37,344 nt of DNA from a virus (taxonomy: Duplodnaviria; Heunggongvirae; Uroviricota; Caudoviricetes), in IMG/VR virus record IMGVR_UViG_2778261692_000005. One strand, 5' to 3'. Made by a program: the position numbers and the translations under genes. The notes under the pieces are model-generated. The model did not search any database. It saw only the letters and a program-made list of their open reading frames with translations, and was not told the DNA's origin. Shown here piece after piece: positions 917-32,067 of the stretch; within the stretch, counting starts at the first letter, position 1, and every line of letters starts with the position of its first letter.

Positions 917-1003
917 GCCCGGATGGTGGAATCGGTAGACACAAGGGATTTAAAATCCCTCGGCGTTCGCGCTGTGCGGGTTCAAGTCCCGCTCCGGGTA
1001 CCA
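917..1003 (+). tRNA. leuZ: tRNA-Leu (anticodon TAA), long variable arm
   Basis: 87-nt sequence GCCCGGATGGTGGAATCGGTAGACACAAGGGATTTAAAATCCC...GGGTACCA; class II tRNA with extra arm. Confidence 0.93.
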
Positions 1004-1045
1004 TGGGAAAGATAAGAATAAAATCAAAGCAATAAGCAGTGTCGT

Positions 1046-1072
1046 GAAACCACCTTCGGGTGGTTTTTTTGT
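1046..1072 (+). terminator. rho-independent terminator of the tRNA operon
   Basis: GC stem AACCACC-TTCG-GGTGGTT followed by a T7 run. Confidence 0.7.
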
Positions 1073-1207
1073 ATTTGTATTTTGTTAAATGGCGGTAAAG
1101 TGGCGATGGTGTGGCGATATGCAGAAATAATAATAGTACACGTCTGTTTAAACTCTAAGGGTGAAGCAAAACTCTCTTGCAACTCATCTGCATTTCGCAT
1201 ATTGAAC

Positions 1208-1310
1208 TAGGGCCTTGGTTAAACCAAAGTTTTTTCGGGGATCTTCCCACTCAACTTCATTTTTCCTCCTACCATCCACCAAAAGGTGTCTGCGCTACTC
1301 TATCTTTTTT
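1208..1310 (+). repeat. copy A of a diverged ~105-bp direct repeat (copy B at 2211-2323)
   Basis: TAGGGCCTTGGTTAAACCAAAGTTTTTTCGGGG...CCATCCACCAAAAGG...CTATCTTTTTT aligns by eye at roughly 75-85% identity with 2211-2323; both copies end in a T-run. Confidence 0.5.
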
Positions 1311-1543
1311 AATCTGACAACATCCTGAGAAAAAGACAAATTCGTTAGATTTACTGTCTTTCTGCTGCCTCGAATGCTGATGTCTGCAGCACTGATAATA
1401 ACTCTATCTCTTTGATATAGATCTTTTTTTTGATGAATTGCACGGCATATTATCGTGATGGCACCTTCTTGTTAAAGGTGTTGTACTCCTCATCTCGATT
1501 TTATGATGTGGGCTATGATTGGTTAGTAATAGAGTGTATCGGT

Positions 1544-1825
1544 ATGCGATGTGGTTTATTAATGGCAATCTGCCTTTGTTTGGTATCTTTTAGTGGGTAT
1601 GCAGCAACAGGAAAGTCAGATGCTCAGATCAAGAAAGAAATAATTAAAGAATCCATTGAATCTTATCCAGGCAATTGTGCGTGTCCGTATAATCATGCAA
1701 GGAATGGTAGTAGATGTGGTGGACGCAGTGCATATAGCCGTACTGGAGGGTATGACGTGGTATGTTATGAAAGTGATGTTACCGATGAAATGATCCGGCA
1801 ATGGAAGCAGGAGAATGCTGAGTAA
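1544..1825 (+). CDS. small secreted cysteine-rich protein of unknown function
   Basis: Internal start MRCGLLMAICLCLVSFSGYAA gives a typical Sec signal peptide; mature part has C-x-C-P-Y-N...C-G-G-R-S-A-Y...C-Y motifs; region looks AT-rich. Start uncertain (track ORF begins at 1430). Confidence 0.45.
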   Translation: MRCGLLMAICLCLVSFSGYAATGKSDAQIKKEIIKESIESYPGNCACPYNHARNGSRCGGRSAYSRTGGYDVVCYESDVTDEMIRQWKQENAE

Positions 1826-1892
1826 TCTCTTTTAACTGATTTGTTGTGCGAGCATTATGTGCAGTTAACGGCTCACTAGCTAGTGAGAGTTC

Positions 1893-1935
1893 CAAAAAGA
1901 AACCCCGCAGTTTTTACGCTGCGGGGTTGTTATTC
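1893..1935. terminator. bidirectional rho-independent terminator
   Basis: Stem CCCCGCAG/CTGCGGGG flanked by an A-run upstream and T-rich run downstream; sits between convergent genes 1544-1825 (+) and hok-like 2015-2155 (-). Confidence 0.6.
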
Positions 1936-2014
1936 ATGCCTATGAGATAGGGTGCCTTATCGGCCTTACCCTAGCAACCGATTGACGGGGAGTTGCCTCC
2001 CCGCCGCGGTTTCC

Positions 2015-2155
2015 TTACTGCTTACACTGTAAGAACGCCGCAAACTCCGCTCCCCAGAAGCTCATCCGTATTTCACACAGCGAACCGTGCAGCATCCAGA
2101 TGATGAGGATTACCGTCACGCAGAACGTGATGGCCGTAAGCGATTTTTGCGACAT
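2015..2155 (-). CDS. Hok/Gef-family type I toxin homologue (46 aa)
   Basis: Unlisted small ORF MSQKSLTAITFCVTVILIIWMLHGSLCEIRMSFWGAEFAAFLQCKQ: N-terminal TM helix then SLCEIR and E-x-AAF motifs matching Hok (…[22 protein letters not shown]); RBS AAGGAG 8 nt upstream of ATG. Confidence 0.6.
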   Translation of the reverse strand: MSQKSLTAITFCVTVILIIWMLHGSLCEIRMSFWGAEFAAFLQCKQ

Positions 2156-2210
2156 AGCGCTTGCTCCTTTGTTGGAGAGGCGCTAACCTATCACTTGCTA
2201 GGTTGACGGG

Positions 2211-2323
2211 TTAGGGCCTCGGTTAAACAGAAATGTTTTCCGGGGCCTTTCCACATCCGGCCTTCGGGTATTCCCTCCGACCATCAGCCGAAAGGCACCC
2301 GCACGTAATCTATCGCTTTTTTG
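2211..2323 (+). repeat. copy B of the ~105-bp diverged direct repeat; lies in the hok-like leader/upstream region and may encode an antisense RNA
   Basis: Aligns with 1208-1310; ends in CTATCGCTTTTTTG; positioned opposite the hok-like 5' region. Confidence 0.45.
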
Positions 2324-2344
2324 TTACTCCGGCAATTCTGCCTG

Positions 2345-2605
2345 TTAATTCTGAGGTAAAGGCAAACTCATCTGATTGTTTCCCCTGTGTGAAGCTGGCA
2401 GCTCATGCCACGGGATACCTTCTGATGAGTGAACGCCGGAGGCGTGTTTCGATGTGAATTTATGGAAAGCTTCCAGTGTTGAGAAGCATACGCCGCATTC
2501 CAGGTTGTTACACTGGTAATACTTTTGCCGCACGGTGTTTGAATCATTTTCCGGACGACTGGTGCGGATACGGGCAGATGCGCCACAAAGCGGACAACGG
2601 AACAT
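2345..2605 (-). CDS. ogr: Ogr/Delta-family zinc-finger late-gene transcription activator
   Basis: MFRCPLCGASARIRTSR...YYQCNNLEC matches the P2 Ogr start MFHCPLC... and its Cys4 spacing; RBS AGGGAGG 5 nt upstream. Confidence 0.85.
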   Translation of the reverse strand: MFRCPLCGASARIRTSRPENDSNTVRQKYYQCNNLECGVCFSTLEAFHKFTSKHASGVHSSEGIPWHELPASHRGNNQMSLPLPQN

Positions 2606-2647
2606 AGCGACCTCCCTTAACGTGGTGCTGCCGCTATTCTAAGTTGC

Positions 2648-3757
2648 TCACTCTGTTTCCGCTATCCATTCCGGGATTTTTGCCTCAAGCTCAAGCTGCG
2701 TGGTAAAGCCGCTGTTATCAATGGTGTGCTCGGCTTTTGCAATAATCCAGTCCTGATTATCAATCTCGCTTTTAAATCCTGTTACCGTGCCATGCATTTC
2801 GGGGTAGAGTTCTGCGCGTCCACGTGCCAGCGTGATGGAGAATGATGCGGCTCCGCGTTGTAGCTGCTGCCACTTTGCCGCCGCTGCGCGTCTTGCTGCC
2901 TGCTCGTTCTGATAAGTCTTGCGTAACACAAACACATTGCCTTCTGCGCCTTCCATATAATCACCTTCACGGCTGCTGCTTTTCTCCTTTTTGGGTTTTG
3001 GCGGTTTGCGGCGTTTCACGCTGACTTTTTTCTTTTTCCCGTAATTAAGATCAAGCCAGTAGGCGCGTACCCCCGTATACGCCTCGCGGTCAGCAATGCG
3101 GAACTGATGGCGATCGCCGCTGCTGCGTGTAATGGCGAACGAGGGCAACGGCTGGCCCTGTGCGTTCACGCCACCACCTGGCATGATGAATAACAGATTG
3201 CCGCTTTTTACCGTGGTGATTGCGCCCAGCATTTCCGCCATGCGCGTAAGGAAGGACATGTCACTTTCTTCGGTCTGGTCGGCGTGGTCGATTTCGATAT
3301 CCATCAGCATTTCGCTGATTTGCGGTTTCAGACCGTACCGATGAGCGATGGCGGATACCACTCGCTCAACGGTCACATCATGCCAGGACACCTCACGTTT
3401 AACGTTAAATTCATCCCGAAAATCTGCGCTTCTGGCTGAAACCGTCAGCCTGTCCGGCGGTCCTTCGTGAGCGATTTCATCAACAATGTAAGTGCCTTTT
3501 TCTGTCAGCGGTTCGCCTTTCCAGCCAATGAGAACCGTCAGGCGCGCGCCCCGTGGCGGTAGCTGCAACTGACCATCCGCATCATCCAGCGTGATGGTGA
3601 GCTGGTCCGCTTCAAATCCCCGGTTGTCGGTCAGTGACAGGCTCATTAGGCGCTCTGCCACGCCGGACAGTGTTTCCCCCTCCGCGAGAATATCAAAATC
3701 CGGCATTTTCACGGGGTCTGTGCTCTGACTGAGCAATTGCATGGTGGTGTCGGTCAT
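2648..3757 (-). CDS. D: tail protein D (late control gene D family)
   Basis: Start placed at MTDTTMQLLSQS (RBS GGAGGGAG upstream) rather than the track ORF start; translation recognised as the gpD family. Confidence 0.88.
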   Translation of the reverse strand: MTDTTMQLLSQSTDPVKMPDFDILAEGETLSGVAERLMSLSLTDNRGFEADQLTITLDDADGQLQLPPRGARLTVLIGWKGEPLTEKGTYIVDEIAHEGPPDRLTVSARSADFRDEFNVKREVSWHDVTVERVVSAIAHRYGLKPQISEMLMDIEIDHADQTEESDMSFLTRMAEMLGAITTVKSGNLLFIMPGGGVNAQGQPLPSFAITRSSGDRHQFRIADREAYTGVRAYWLDLNYGKKKKVSVKRRKPPKPKKEKSSSREGDYMEGAEGNVFVLRKTYQNEQAARRAAAAKWQQLQRGAASFSITLARGRAELYPEMHGTVTGFKSEIDNQDWIIAKAEHTIDNSGFTTQLELEAKIPEWIAETE

Positions 3758-3914
3758 CTGCTCCCTCCCTGTGTGGCATGGTCGCATGTGCGTGCGGAGG
3801 GGGTTACTGCTTTTTGTTGTCGCCGTGGCGGGAGAACGGCGCAGGGGTGAGATTACGCGCGTGGTGGGTGATGATTGTTGCCGAATCATTTAACGGATAC
3901 AAGGGGCTGAAGCT
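3758..3914. promoter_or_regulatory. divergent late promoter region between D (-) and FI (+)
   Basis: 157-bp intergenic region between divergently transcribed late operons; no Ogr TGT-N12-ACA site confidently identified. Confidence 0.35.
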
Positions 3915-5099
3915 ATGAGTGAAACTCGTTTTCATGGTGCCCGTGTTACGGAAAATACCGACCTGGTAACAGCGATTAACGATGTTGATTCCAGCGTTAT
4001 CGGTATCGTGGCAACGGCGGATGATGCGGACGCGAAGTTGTTCCCGCTGAACAAGCCCACACTGCTGACCCGCGTCAATGACGTGCTGGGAAAATGCGGA
4101 ACAACGGGGACGCTTTATCGTGCGCTTAAGGCCATCGCAGACCAGGTGAGCACAAAGGTGATCGTCGTTCGCGTGGCTGAACACAAAGAAGAAGACGAAA
4201 AGACGCAGGATCAACTGGTTATCGGTGGTTCTGAGGATGACGGCAGCTATACGGGGATGTATGCGCTGCTTGTTGCAGAGCAGGATGAAAGCATCGGATA
4301 CCGTCCGCGTATTCTGGCCGCGCCGGAGCTGGACACGGAGGCGGTGACAAAATCCCTGTGCGTGATTGCGGGTAAACTGCGCGCATTTGTGTATGCCTCA
4401 TGTCACGGCTGTAACACGATGGCTGAAGCGATTACCTACCGCCAGAAATTCAACGAACGTGAAGTGATGCTCTTATGGCCGGACTTCATCGCCTACAACC
4501 CGAAAAGTGGCGAAAACGAAACGTTCCCCGCGCCTGCTTATGCGTGCGGCCTTCGTGCGTACATTGACCATGAGCAGGGCTGGCACAAATCGCTGTCCAA
4601 CGTTCCGGTTAAAAATGTGCTGGGGATGTCGAGGCATGTGTTCTGGTCGTTGCAGGCCGAAGACAGCGATGCCAACAGCCTCAACAACAAAGAAATCACG
4701 ACCATTATTCGTCGCAACGGGTTCCGCTTCTGGGGCAACCGCACACCGGAAACGAACGCCTACATTTTTGAGGTGTATACCCGAACCGCACAGGTGCTGG
4801 CTGATTCAATTGCGGAAGCGCAGTTTGAAACCATCGACAGTCCACTGACGCCTGCGAACGTGAAGGATGTTATCAGTGCCATCAGGGCAAAACTGGATTC
4901 ACTGGTGACTGCCGGGAAACTGATTGGCGCGGAGTGCTGGTATGACGTGGTGGATAACAGCACCACGGATTTACGTCAGGGGCGTGTGCGTATTCGCTAC
5001 AAATATACGCCTGTTCCCCCGCTGGAAGACATGGAGCTTTACCAGACGTTTACTGATGAATACTTTGAACCCGCATTTGCGGTGCTGGGAGGTGCCTGA
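3915..5099 (+). CDS. FI: contractile tail sheath protein
   Basis: 394 aa; N-terminus MSETRFHGARVTE...FPLNKPTLLTRVND parallels P2 FI (…HGVQV…FPLNKPVLIT); RBS AAGGGG. Confidence 0.9.
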   Translation: MSETRFHGARVTENTDLVTAINDVDSSVIGIVATADDADAKLFPLNKPTLLTRVNDVLGKCGTTGTLYRALKAIADQVSTKVIVVRVAEHKEEDEKTQDQLVIGGSEDDGSYTGMYALLVAEQDESIGYRPRILAAPELDTEAVTKSLCVIAGKLRAFVYASCHGCNTMAEAITYRQKFNEREVMLLWPDFIAYNPKSGENETFPAPAYACGLRAYIDHEQGWHKSLSNVPVKNVLGMSRHVFWSLQAEDSDANSLNNKEITTIIRRNGFRFWGNRTPETNAYIFEVYTRTAQVLADSIAEAQFETIDSPLTPANVKDVISAIRAKLDSLVTAGKLIGAECWYDVVDNSTTDLRQGRVRIRYKYTPVPPLEDMELYQTFTDEYFEPAFAVLGGA

Positions 5100-5611
5100 T
5101 GGCTGTGCCAAAACATCTTCGCTTTTTTACGCTGTTTGTGGATGGTGAAAACGAAGTGGGTAAGGTGACGTCCGTCACTCTGCCTAAGCTGACGCGCAAA
5201 ACCGACAGCTACCGGGGTGGCGGCATGATGGGGGCGGTAAGTATTGATCTCGGTCTGGACGACTCCGCGCTTGATGCGAGCTTTGTCATGGGGGGCGCAG
5301 TTCGTGAGCTGTTCCTTAAGTATGGCGGCACGATTGACGGCACGCTGCTGCGTTTTGCGGGTGAATACTACACCGATGCAGAAAGCGACCTGTATGAAGT
5401 CGAAATGCGCGGACGCGTGACGGAAATTGATATGGGGGAAGCCAAACAGGGCGAAGCCACATCACACACTTACGCCATTAAAAACACCTACTACAAGCTG
5501 AGTGTTAACGATCGTCCGTTGTGGGAGATTGACCTGCTGAACTTCATTTACCGGAAGGACGGCAAGGACATTGTGCCCGATCGCATCCGTTCCGCGCTTG
5601 GGCTTGGCTGA
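5099..5611 (+). CDS. FII: tail tube protein
   Basis: 170 aa, start overlaps FI stop (TGATG); recognised as the P2 FII tail tube family. Confidence 0.88.
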   Translation: MAVPKHLRFFTLFVDGENEVGKVTSVTLPKLTRKTDSYRGGGMMGAVSIDLGLDDSALDASFVMGGAVRELFLKYGGTIDGTLLRFAGEYYTDAESDLYEVEMRGRVTEIDMGEAKQGEATSHTYAIKNTYYKLSVNDRPLWEIDLLNFIYRKDGKDIVPDRIRSALGLG

Positions 5612-31745: not shown

Positions 31746-32067
31746 GGTGTGGCCTCTTTGCTCGGTGATAGAAATAGCTCACCATCCAGAGTTGAGAATC
31801 TCGGGGTGGCGAGACGTACAGGGTTCTCAACACCGGAGAGCAAAGAATCCGGCCCGACCGAAGTCGGCCCCGTACGCCCCGCCATAATTCTGACGCGAAA
31901 AAGACGTGGCAATACAGTACGCACAAAAAAACCGCTGGCGCGGTTATGCGCTTTGCTCTGTATCGGGTTGAGAATCCCGGCACCCGTTTTATGAGGTGCA
32001 GCGGAAATGTAACCTGACCGATTGCGGCATGGCAAGCGGTTTTTTTGTGTGTGCATGTTCTGGTTTC
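31746..32067. other. ~320-bp non-coding stretch inside the early operon with GTTGAGAA inverted repeats and terminator-like hairpins
   Basis: Only low-complexity ORFs overlap; GTTGAGAA/TTCTCAAC inverted pair around 31790-31830, third copy around 31965; hairpin ACCGC-N4-GCGGT with A7/T7 flank around 31925-31945. Confidence 0.4.

What the first reader, a model, noticed from the sequence alone, without database searches (positions are those of the whole stretch)
1208..2323. Diverged ~105-bp direct repeat flanking the leuZ-proximal cargo (copies at 1208-1310 and 2211-2323)
The two copies share TAGGGCCT(T/C)GGTTAAAC…GTTTT(T/C)CGGGG…CC(T/G)ACCATC(C/A)(A/G)CC(A/G)AAAGG…CTATC…TTTTTT at roughly 75-85% identity by eye and both end in a T-run. 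Copy A has a plausible -35/-10 just upstream. They bracket the small secreted-protein gene and the hok-like gene. Possible explanations are two paralogous small RNAs (for example Sok-like, one orphaned), a remnant of an earlier P2-like prophage end at the same site, or att-arm homology.
Basis: seen in the sequence. Interest (0 to 1): 0.5.

Follow-up and report, generated by a model that had tools for sequence, protein, structure and literature searches.

The report
Dead hok/sok copy beside live one
The two repeat copies are matching pieces of two toxin-antitoxin (hok/sok) loci carried by a P2-like prophage in the leuZ tRNA gene: one locus looks intact and the other is a gutted, decaying relic, which is an ordinary outcome for this well-known gene family.

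Summary
The repeat is real. Windows 1208-1310 and 2212-2323 align at 77% identity over aligned bases, with a local score of 55 against 16.5 ± 2.2 for shuffles (z = 17.7).

Copy B is not a separate element. [quoted passage not shown] It also covers the 3' hairpin of the antisense Sok RNA on the plus strand.

Copy A is the same part of a second, dead hok/sok locus. A profile of 53 related loci also detects the C-terminal half of a hok reading frame directly to its left (1143-1207; the O157-type allele still reads GSLCEIR).

Relic A carries these lesions:
- a 127-nt internal deletion that removed hok codons 1-24, the sok promoter and the Sok 5' end
- no 3' UTR
- a frameshift in the coding remnant
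- a hok promoter spacer of 12 nt instead of 17
- a broken Sok hairpin

It diverges about 16% between prophage lineages, against 0-1% for the live hok gene.

Both copies lie inside the prophage, whose att repeat is 949-1074. The T-runs are promoter-spacer A-runs read from the other strand, not terminators. Ordinary; low interest.

The parts
949..1074 (+). attL repeat: the 3' half of leuZ plus its terminator (hairpin 1046-1067). Phage DNA starts at about 1075.
   Evidence: An identical 126-bp copy follows the int gene in strain CEA601S. Prophage-free genomes match only up to window 1072-1074. tRNA-Leu lies at 917-1003 and the terminator is.
1143..1207 (-). Relic of the hok_A coding sequence, C-terminal half only. 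It is frameshifted by a 4-nt deletion and its stop codon is lost.
   Evidence: nhmmer with the B-family profile gives hmm 135-203 and E = 0.0025 in the window allele, and E about 1e-8 at 22-23 bits in the O157-type alleles. The minus-strand translation reads SICEMQMS..FASPLEFKQ in the window and GSLCEIR in L002/L007/L008, against Hok_B HGSLCEIRMSFWGAEFAAFLQCKQ.
1208..1320 (-). Copy A: relic of the hok_A mRNA leader and hok promoter. The plus strand of 1209-1246 holds the remnant of the Sok_A terminator hairpin.
   Evidence: nhmmer gives E = 5e-10 over hmm 331-446. Identity to copy B is 77%. The spacer between rc-TAGAGT (1297-1302) and rc-TTGTCA (1315-1320) is 12 nt, against 17 nt in B. Fold z-scores are -0.1 to -0.6 on both strands. 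Rfam does not detect it.
1544..1825 (+). A 93-aa cysteine-rich ORF with a signal-peptide-like N-terminus, lying between the two hok loci. It is cargo and not part of the repeat.
   Evidence: ORF list. RefSeq annotates it as a hypothetical protein. It diverges 3% between lineages with the reading frame kept. It has no Pfam family. Homologs occur in Aeromonas, Kosakonia and Pseudomonas with no hok nearby.
1901..1928 (.). Bidirectional intrinsic terminator that ends the 93-aa ORF transcript (+) and the hok_B mRNA (-).
   Evidence: Terminator scan, both strands. It forms the terminal hairpin in the hok mRNA fold.
1893..2300 (-). Predicted full-length hok_B mRNA, about 408 nt. The 5' tac element (2286-2300) pairs with the 3' fbi element (about 1948-1964).
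   Evidence: Rfam RF01794 covers model positions 1-157 at 2145-2300 minus, with 47.3 bits and E = 4e-9. The MFE fold is -181.9 kcal/mol with z = -7.2 and closes the molecule by pairing the 5' and 3' ends. The +1 position is inferred from the Rfam alignment.
2015..2155 (-). hok_B toxin gene, 46 aa.
   Evidence: Pfam HOK_GEF scores 30.1 bits against a cutoff of 22. RefSeq names it 'Hok/Gef family protein' WP_000078920.1. It diverges 0-0.7% between lineages.
2161..2255 (+). Predicted sok_B gene: -35 TTGCTC (2161-2166), -10 TAACCT (2184-2189), and the RNA from about 2196 to 2255 with a terminator hairpin at 2213-2249.
   Evidence: The position is homologous to the R1 sok promoter via the Rfam alignment (the R1 layout is from my own knowledge). 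The hexamers are 96-100% conserved in 53 loci. The hairpin folds at -24 kcal/mol with z = -3.2. The transcript ends are inferred.
2211..2323 (-). It spans the Sok hairpin, hok_B leader positions +1 to about +89, and the hok -10 element with part of the promoter spacer.
2307..2335 (-). Predicted hok_B promoter: -35 TTGCCG (rc of 2330-2335), a 17-nt A-rich spacer that reads as the plus-strand T-run, and -10 TAGATT (rc of 2307-2312).
   Evidence: Read directly from the sequence. The hexamers are 91-98% conserved in 53 loci. Function is inferred, and the element is below the threshold of the consensus scan.
2345..2605 (-). ogr, the P2-type late-gene activator and the first core phage gene after the cargo.
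   Evidence: Pfam Ogr_Delta scores 52.4 bits. RefSeq annotation.

Best explanation
The window holds pgsA-glyW-cysT-leuZ followed by a P2-like prophage integrated in leuZ. [quoted passage not shown]

Module B (1893-2335) appears complete. On the minus strand it has a hok promoter, a structured leader, the 46-aa Hok membrane toxin, a 3' fbi element that pairs with the 5' end, and a terminator. On the plus strand, inside the leader, it has a sok promoter and a roughly 60-nt antisense Sok RNA. By analogy with R1 hok/sok and Sp5 hokW/sokW, unstable Sok blocks translation of the stable hok mRNA, and loss of Sok lets Hok damage the membrane. This mechanism is inferred and was not tested here. Copy B of the finding is simply the leader and promoter end of this module.

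Module A (1143-1320) is a pseudogene of the same kind. One ancestral 127-nt deletion joined the middle of the hok coding sequence to the middle of the sok gene. It removed the toxin's transmembrane half, its ribosome-binding site, the sok promoter and the Sok 5' recognition end. The 3' UTR is also gone, the coding remnant is frameshifted, the hok promoter spacer is 5 nt too short and the Sok hairpin no longer pairs. Copy A is what survives of that leader.

The repeat therefore reflects common descent of two paralogous loci, not a recombination site or a pair of active sRNAs. Module A most likely has no function and is drifting.
For: Shown by the tools:
1. The A/B similarity is far above chance.
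2. Copy B lies in a hok leader. Rfam sok/hok-leader model RF01794 matches 2145-2300 minus at E = 4e-9, directly upstream of a Pfam-positive Hok ORF that RefSeq annotates as Hok/Gef.
3. The predicted full-length hok_B mRNA folds with 5'-3' end pairing and z = -7.2. The Sok hairpin has z = -3.2. Promoter hexamers, tac and the hairpin are 91-100% conserved in 53 distinct loci.
4. The hok coding relic abuts copy A in colinear order and orientation, hmm 134-205 followed by hmm 331-446. The junction, the 4-nt deletion and the 5-nt spacer deletion are the same in all five allele groups. The GSLCEIR peptide survives in O157-type alleles.
5. Signs of decay in A: no Rfam hit at E <= 10; fold z of -0.1 to -0.6 against -1.6 to -2.4 for B; 16-18% divergence with indels between lineages, against 0-0.7% for the hok_B coding sequence and 3% for the ORF.
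6. Both modules lie inside the prophage, since the att repeat is 949-1074.
7. Related phages place a single intact hok/sok directly between att and ogr (phages P88, Chuche and P884B11 at 94-95%).

From the literature:
- Degenerate chromosomal hok/sok copies are already described (PMC4147584, section 2.4.1).
- The related hokW-sokW locus is an experimentally shown type I toxin-antitoxin system (PMC8621323).
Against: - The relic, with identical lesions, has persisted in three allele groups that differ by up to 16% and occurs in 652 of 5426 E. coli genomes. That is long survival for useless DNA in a phage genome and leaves room for a residual role.
- Divergence comparisons between segments are confounded by recombination mosaicism. 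The hok_B 3' UTR also differs by 15-20%.
- In the window's own allele, the hok coding relic alone is only weakly significant: pairwise score 20, reached by 212 of 5000 shuffles, and profile E = 0.0025. The strong support comes from the other alleles.
- Module B scores below Rfam's gathering threshold (47.3 against 59).
- The window's B allele has no canonical mok frame reading into hok, so its activity is assumed rather than shown.
- No expression data were available.
Confidence: 0.85

Rival explanations
1. Copy A encodes an active orphan Sok-like antisense or decoy sRNA on the plus strand. It would be driven by the TTGCAA-N17-TATTGA hexamers at 1177-1205 and would modulate hok_B or hok loci of incoming phages or plasmids (anti-addiction).
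For: The window allele has promoter-like hexamers just upstream of copy A. Copy A keeps the left arm of the Sok hairpin and a U-run (1209-1236). The relic is retained in many genomes.
Against: - The original sok promoter and the first roughly 16 nt of Sok, the single-stranded recognition end, fall within the 127-nt deletion.
- The hairpin's right arm is mutated, and the fold is no better than shuffles (-10.1 kcal/mol, z = -0.3, against -24 kcal/mol and z = -3.2 for Sok_B).
- The -35 reads CTGCA[A/G] in nearly all other alleles, and the -10 region also varies.
- The hexamers fail the consensus scan.
- Identity to the hok_B target is only about 75% with indels.
- Single-base indels occur between alleles.
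Confidence: 0.05
2. The relic has been co-opted as a cis element for neighbouring phage functions. It could be part of the upstream regulatory region of the 93-aa ORF, or a spacer or insulator next to the attP P' arm.
For: It lies between the putative Int arm-type sites (GTGGCGAT motifs at 1095-1118) and the ORF. It always co-occurs with the att arm, including in degraded prophages.
Against: - It is the fastest-evolving segment of the region and carries indels.
- The scan finds no promoter or terminator signal in it.
- In two strains an IS element lies inside or just beyond it, although those prophages are already degraded.
- About 230 nt separate it from the ORF start.
Confidence: 0.06
3. The two copies are recombination or boundary repeats: att-arm homology, the target duplication of an inserted cassette, or members of a dispersed intergenic repeat family such as REP or ERIC.
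For: They are direct repeats in the same orientation and bracket two small genes next to an att site.
Against: - The true att repeat is 949-1074 and is unrelated to the copies.
- Copy B is internal to the hok transcription unit.
- B-type sequences occur once per hok/sok locus in many phages that lack copy A.
- A-type sequence occurs at a single place per genome.
- There is no Rfam hit or third copy in the window.
- 23-30% divergence with indels is incompatible with a recent duplication made by insertion.
Confidence: 0.02

Closest known systems
hok/sok loci of isolated P2-like phages (Escherichia phages P88, Chuche, Xuanwuvirus P884B11, 500465-2; annotated 'MokW-like host killing')
   Same: Module B is 94-95% identical over about 400-450 nt and sits in the same place, between the att site and ogr.
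   Different: Those phages carry a single locus abutting the att region. None has relic A or the 93-aa ORF, since query positions 1-817 find no match.
hokW-sokW of Stx2 prophage Sp5 (E. coli O157:H7 Sakai), an experimentally shown type I toxin-antitoxin system (PMC8621323)
   Same: The hok locus of Stx2-converting phages is 84% identical to module B over about 375 nt, and its Hok protein is clearly homologous (MSQKSL...HGSLCE..WGAEFAAFLQCKQ). By homology, the expected mechanism is the same: Sok antisense control dependent on RNase III and Hfq.
   Different: The phage type is lambdoid rather than P2-like and the genomic position differs. I did not confirm that the Stx-phage locus I compared is identical to the published hokW. 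The paper gives 51 aa for HokW, while the annotation here gives 46 aa.
hok/sok (parB) of plasmid R1, the archetype behind Rfam RF01794 and Pfam PF01848
   Same: Module B shares the leader architecture (RF01794 full-length alignment), long-range tac-fbi pairing, a sok promoter inside the leader opposite hok, and the Hok LCE motif.
   Different: The Rfam score is below the gathering threshold. The window's allele has no mok frame overlapping hok: the leader ORFs from AUG+45 and GUG+47 stop at +110 and +103, whereas hok starts at +146.
Degenerate chromosomal hok/sok loci of E. coli. PMC4147584 notes 'sequence insertions or sequence degeneration'. From my own knowledge, Pedersen & Gerdes 1999 described K-12 hok loci inactivated by IS elements or rearrangements.
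   Same: Relic A is a hok/sok locus that can no longer make toxin or antitoxin.
   Different: Here the inactivation is an internal deletion plus truncation, not an IS insertion. The relic sits inside an otherwise intact phage, in tandem with a live paralogue.

Membership tests
hok/sok type I TA: module B (1893-2335) | Small hydrophobic Hok/Gef toxin ORF | tested here: met
   Pfam PF01848 scores 30.1 bits against a cutoff of 22. RefSeq annotates it as a Hok/Gef family protein.
hok/sok type I TA: module B (1893-2335) | Structured 5' leader matching the hok/sok RNA model (Rfam RF01794) | tested here: inconclusive
   There is a full-length match to model positions 1-157 at E = 4e-9, but 47.3 bits is below the gathering score of 59.
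hok/sok type I TA: module B (1893-2335) | Long-range pairing of the mRNA 5' end (tac) with a 3' element (fbi), followed by a terminator | tested here: met
   The MFE and centroid folds of 1893-2300 (minus) pair GGGUGCCUUUCGGCU with GGCCGAUAAGGCACCC, with z = -7.2. The terminator is at 1901-1928. The tac element is 99% conserved in 53 loci.
hok/sok type I TA: module B (1893-2335) | Cis-encoded antisense Sok RNA with its own promoter inside the leader and a terminator hairpin | tested here: inconclusive
   The TTGCTC-N17-TAACCT hexamers lie at the position homologous to the R1 sok promoter and are 96-100% conserved. The hairpin at 2213-2249 has z = -3.2. No transcript data were available, and the hairpin pairs do not vary, so there is no covariation evidence.
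hok/sok type I TA: module B (1893-2335) | mok leader ORF overlapping hok and covered by Sok (translational coupling) | tested here: not met
   In the window's allele the ORFs starting at AUG+45 and GUG+47 end at +110 and +103, before the hok AUG at +146. The frame that reads into hok has no ATG, GTG or TTG start. In roughly a third of the related alleles the GUG ORF does read into hok.
hok/sok type I TA: module B (1893-2335) | Toxicity of Hok and neutralisation by Sok | not testable with these tools
   This needs expression assays. It has been shown only for relatives (PMC8621323; bioRxiv 10.1101/2025.08.07.668861).
hok/sok type I TA: relic A (1143-1320) | Intact Hok ORF | tested here: not met
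   Only the C-terminal half is recognisable. It is frameshifted and has no start codon, SD or transmembrane half.
hok/sok type I TA: relic A (1143-1320) | Leader recognised by RF01794 and folding better than chance | tested here: not met
   No RF01794 hit at E <= 10 in a 241-nt search. Fold z = -0.6 on the minus strand and -0.1 on the plus strand. Homology shows only through the B-family profile (E = 5e-10).
hok/sok type I TA: relic A (1143-1320) | Sok gene with a promoter, a 5' recognition end and a hairpin | tested here: not met
   The promoter and 5' end lie in the deleted 127 nt. The hairpin remnant has z = -0.3.
Dispersed intergenic repeats (REP/ERIC) | Many dispersed copies per genome, and a palindromic unit | tested here: not met
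   The copy A type occurs at one place per genome in 652 genomes. The window has no further copy and no Rfam family hit.
Phage att-site arms | The sequence is shared between the two prophage ends | tested here: not met
   The repeat shared by the two ends is 949-1074 only. Neither copy recurs beyond int.

The most novel reading that the evidence does not exclude
The gutted hok/sok relic is kept because it still does something. It might be a short hairpin-plus-U-run RNA or a DNA element that tunes the neighbouring live hok/sok or the 93-aa secreted-protein gene, making it an exapted toxin-antitoxin fossil conserved across leuZ-type P2-like prophages.
Probability: 0.06. Interest if true: 0.35.

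Novelty: new member of a known kind. Interest (0 to 1): 0.15.

Why it matters
It matters little beyond annotation.

- It explains an unannotated 180-nt stretch next to leuZ in about 12% of complete E. coli genomes, including O157:H7, as a hok/sok pseudogene.
- It shows that the leuZ-type P2-like phages once carried two hok/sok modules in tandem.
- It warns against calling the stretch an sRNA gene or a terminator on the basis of its T-run and chance promoter-like hexamers.

The more useful by-product is the hypervariable patch in the Sok 5' end of the live module family. That patch may bear on how near-identical hok/sok loci on competing prophages avoid cross-neutralisation.

Tried and rejected
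- **Rfam at gathering thresholds.** Nothing in 1000-2400 apart from the tRNAs. Only the relaxed search exposed the hok leader, and copy A stays invisible to Rfam.
- **att repeat inside the window.** None found, because the window ends at the int stop codon. This was solved with the full genome of strain CEA601S.
- **Blastn 'distant' search with relic A in 5426 E. coli genomes.** It found only the leuZ locus itself and no more intact relative.
- **Search for an intact ancestor of module A through homologs of the 93-aa ORF in other species.** This returned seven loci in Aeromonas, Kosakonia and Pseudomonas, none with hok/sok nearby.
- **Comparison of relic A with the Stx-phage hok type.** It is as distant from that type (71%) as from the P2 type, so the donor lineage remains unresolved.
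- **Pairwise alignment of the window's own 1075-1207 against hok_B.** Not significant on its own (212 of 5000 shuffles). The relic call rests on the profile and on the other alleles.
- **Plus-strand ORFs across copy A.** Rejected as genes, because single-base indels between alleles break them.
- **Literature searches for hok in P2-like prophages.** Mostly false hits on the author name 'Hokamp'.
Full report
**Setting.** The window starts with pgsA and the tRNA genes glyW, cysT and leuZ. It then runs through a P2-like prophage whose recognisable genes include ogr (2345-2605, minus; Pfam Ogr_Delta), gene D, and an integrase ending at the last base of the window. In 5425 of 5426 complete E. coli genomes the flank matches only as far as window 1072-1074, the end of the leuZ terminator. 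In strain CEA601S, which carries the same prophage at 99.9% identity, the 126 bp of window 949-1074 (the 3' half of leuZ plus its terminator) recur exactly just beyond the integrase gene. That segment is the att repeat. Everything from about 1075 onward is phage DNA, so both repeat copies lie in phage cargo between attL and ogr.

Windows 1208-1310 and 2212-2323 align with 79 matches, 24 mismatches and 9 gap columns, which is 76.7% identity over aligned bases. The local score of 55 compares with 16.5 ± 2.2 (maximum 28) in 2000 dinucleotide-preserving shuffles, giving z = 17.7. No other part of the window on either strand exceeds 23.

**What copy B is.**
- A 46-aa ORF at 2015-2155 on the minus strand passes the Pfam Hok/Gef threshold (30.1 bits against 22), and RefSeq annotates it as Hok/Gef.
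- The Rfam model RF01794, which represents the hok leader strand, aligns full length to 2145-2300 on the minus strand. The E-value is 4e-9, but 47.3 bits is below the gathering score of 59.
- Taking 2300 as +1, the 408-nt RNA down to the bidirectional terminator at 1901-1928 folds at -181.9 kcal/mol (z = -7.2). Its 5' end GGGUGCCUUUCGGCU pairs with GGCCGAUAAGGCACCC near the 3' end. From my own knowledge of R1 hok mRNA, this is the tac-fbi closure that is typical of it.
- Upstream on the minus strand lie TTGCCG, 17 nt and TAGATT (rc of 2330-2335 and 2307-2312).
- On the plus strand, at the position homologous to the R1 sok promoter, lie TTGCTC, 17 nt and TAACCT (2161-2189). They are followed by a strong hairpin at 2213-2249 (-24 kcal/mol, z = -3.2).
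- In 53 distinct related loci collected from IMG/VR these elements are 91-100% conserved.

Copy B (2211-2323) is therefore the Sok 3' hairpin, the first roughly 89 nt of the hok leader, and the hok -10 element with its promoter spacer. Its 'T-run' is the A-rich promoter spacer read from the other strand, and no terminator-like site is found there.

**What copy A is.** A profile HMM of the 53 loci (hmm 1-480 corresponds to window 1882-2361) hits the window at two places:
- 1208-1312 matches hmm 331-446 at E = 5e-10.
- Directly abutting it, 1143-1207 matches hmm 135-203 at E = 0.0025. That part of the profile is the C-terminal half of the hok coding sequence, window 2016-2084.

In the more diverged alleles of the same locus from O157:H7, O111:H8 and strain E5, the coding relic scores 22-23 bits at E about 1e-8. 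Its minus-strand translation there reads GSLCEIR, identical to Hok_B residues 24-30. The window's allele reads SICEMQMS...FASPLEFKQ, against SLCEIRMSFWGAEFAAFLQCKQ in Hok_B.

All five allele groups share the same lesions:
- the same junction, with the equivalent of B 2085-2211 missing
- the same 4-nt deletion in the coding relic
- the same 5-nt deletion that shortens the hok promoter spacer to 12 nt

A single ancestral event therefore removed hok codons 1-24, the ribosome-binding site, the sok promoter and the first roughly 16 nt of Sok. The 3' UTR (fbi and terminator) is also absent, because the relic begins about 25 nt beyond the putative Int arm-type motifs at 1095-1118.

**Signs of decay in copy A.**
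- Rfam does not detect it, even in a 241-nt search at E <= 10.
- Neither strand folds better than shuffles, with z between -0.1 and -0.6.
- The Sok hairpin's right arm has changed from CCGGGGCC to CGGGGATC or CTGGGAT[CT], and its z is -0.3.
- Between prophage lineages the relic differs by 16-18% with indels. The comparable figures are 0-0.7% for the hok_B coding sequence, 3% for the 93-aa ORF and 6-8% for the hok_B leader.
The -35 TTGCAA reads CTGCA[A/G] in nearly all other alleles, and the pair fails the consensus scan.

**Distribution.** The relic-A region occurs in 652 of 5426 E. coli genomes, with a median of one place per genome; in every locus fetched it lies next to leuZ. The alleles fall into groups at about 99%, 93% and 85% identity. 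It persists in degraded prophages:
- O157:H7 has leuZ, relic A and the ORF, followed by IS30 and a truncated D gene.
- Strain E5 keeps only attL, relic A, the ORF, hok and ogr, followed by yecA.
- Strain F3 has an IS1 starting just beyond ~1258, where homology to copy A ends.

Related P2-like prophages and isolated phages (P88, Chuche, P884B11, 500465-2) carry one intact hok/sok, 94-95% identical to module B, directly between att and ogr. They have no relic A and no ORF. The hok locus of Stx2 phages is 84% identical to module B. The hokW-sokW locus of the Stx2 prophage Sp5 is an experimentally shown type I toxin-antitoxin system (PMC8621323). Relic A is about 71% identical to both types, so its donor lineage is unresolved. 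I found no undeleted version.

**Mechanism.** For module B I infer the standard hok/sok mechanism. A stable, folded hok mRNA is activated by 3' processing. Short-lived Sok pairs with the leader and blocks translation. Loss of Sok releases the membrane toxin (PMC4147584; PMC8621323). One defining feature is not met in this allele: no mok frame reads into hok, although it does in about a third of related alleles. Activity of module B is therefore assumed, not shown. Module A cannot make either toxin or antitoxin, and I take it to be a non-functional fossil with confidence 0.85. Its long persistence with identical lesions is the only hint of a residual role.

**Comparison with what is known, and verdict.** Degenerate hok/sok copies are documented (PMC4147584), and hok is known to be enriched in prophages (bioRxiv 10.1101/2025.08.07.668861). 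The finding is a real repeat with an ordinary explanation: an unannotated pseudogene member of a well-known family lying next to its live, already annotated paralogue. The terminator, promoter, att-arm and cassette-border readings were wrong.

Noticed in passing
window 2198-2210 (plus strand: 5' end of predicted Sok_B; minus strand: its target in the hok_B leader): This is a hypervariable patch in otherwise highly conserved loci. Pairwise diversity is 0.37, against 0.04-0.12 in the flanks. There are 11 alleles of 17-19 nt among 53 distinct P2-type hok/sok loci. Because Sok and its target are encoded on opposite strands of the same DNA, any change keeps them complementary while altering specificity. 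The pattern looks like diversification that avoids cross-neutralisation between related prophages.
   Followed up: partly
window 2194-2256 minus strand (hok_B leader +45 to +110): The window's allele has no mok frame overlapping hok. ORFs from AUG+45 (21 aa) and GUG+47 (18 aa) stop before the hok AUG at +146. In about a third of related alleles, length changes in the variable patch put the GUG ORF in frame so that it reads into hok. Translational coupling may therefore differ between alleles, or some alleles may be silent.
   Followed up: partly
window 1544-1825 (+): A 93-aa cysteine-rich ORF with a signal-peptide-like N-terminus lies between the two hok modules. It is conserved (3% divergence) and has no Pfam family. 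Homologs at 50-64% identity occur in Aeromonas, Kosakonia and Pseudomonas with no hok nearby. Its function is unknown.
   Followed up: partly
window 31802-31889 (-) and 31925-31999 (-): Rfam hits above the gathering score to C4 antisense RNA (78.5 bits) and isrK (62.8 bits) lie in the early region of the prophage. This suggests an antisense-RNA immunity system of the P1/P4 type in a P2-like phage.
   Followed up: no
window 1095-1118; L004 (strain CEA601S) just beyond the int stop codon: GTGGCGAT-type motifs are repeated on both sides of the att repeat (AAAGTGGCGATGGTGTGGCGAT on one side, AAAGTGGCGATAAAAAGTGACAAT on the other). They are probably arm-type integrase binding sites.
   Followed up: no
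L007 (strain E5, NZ_CP104521.1) 2430-4320: A minimal prophage remnant keeps only attL, relic A, the 93-aa ORF, hok/sok and ogr before the chromosomal yecA gene. The hok/sok end has outlived the rest of the phage, as expected for an addiction module.
   Followed up: no
L004 (strain CEA601S) 3300-4500; L006 (strain ECCTRSRTH03) 2864-4485; L001 (strain F3) 3255-5186: The leuZ site is a busy insertion hotspot. CEA601S has a second integrase fragment and a lambdoid prophage directly after attR. ECCTRSRTH03 has ISEc52 and a TIR-domain gene after relic A. F3 has IS1 and ISVsa5 with tet genes interrupting copy A.
   Followed up: no
window 1930-2014 (hok_B 3' UTR, including fbi): The 3' UTR of the live hok locus differs by 15-20% between lineages whose hok coding sequence is identical, and has diversity 0.21 across the family. 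The fbi core is less conserved than tac (0.86 against 0.99). I did not examine whether fbi changes are compensated.
   Followed up: no
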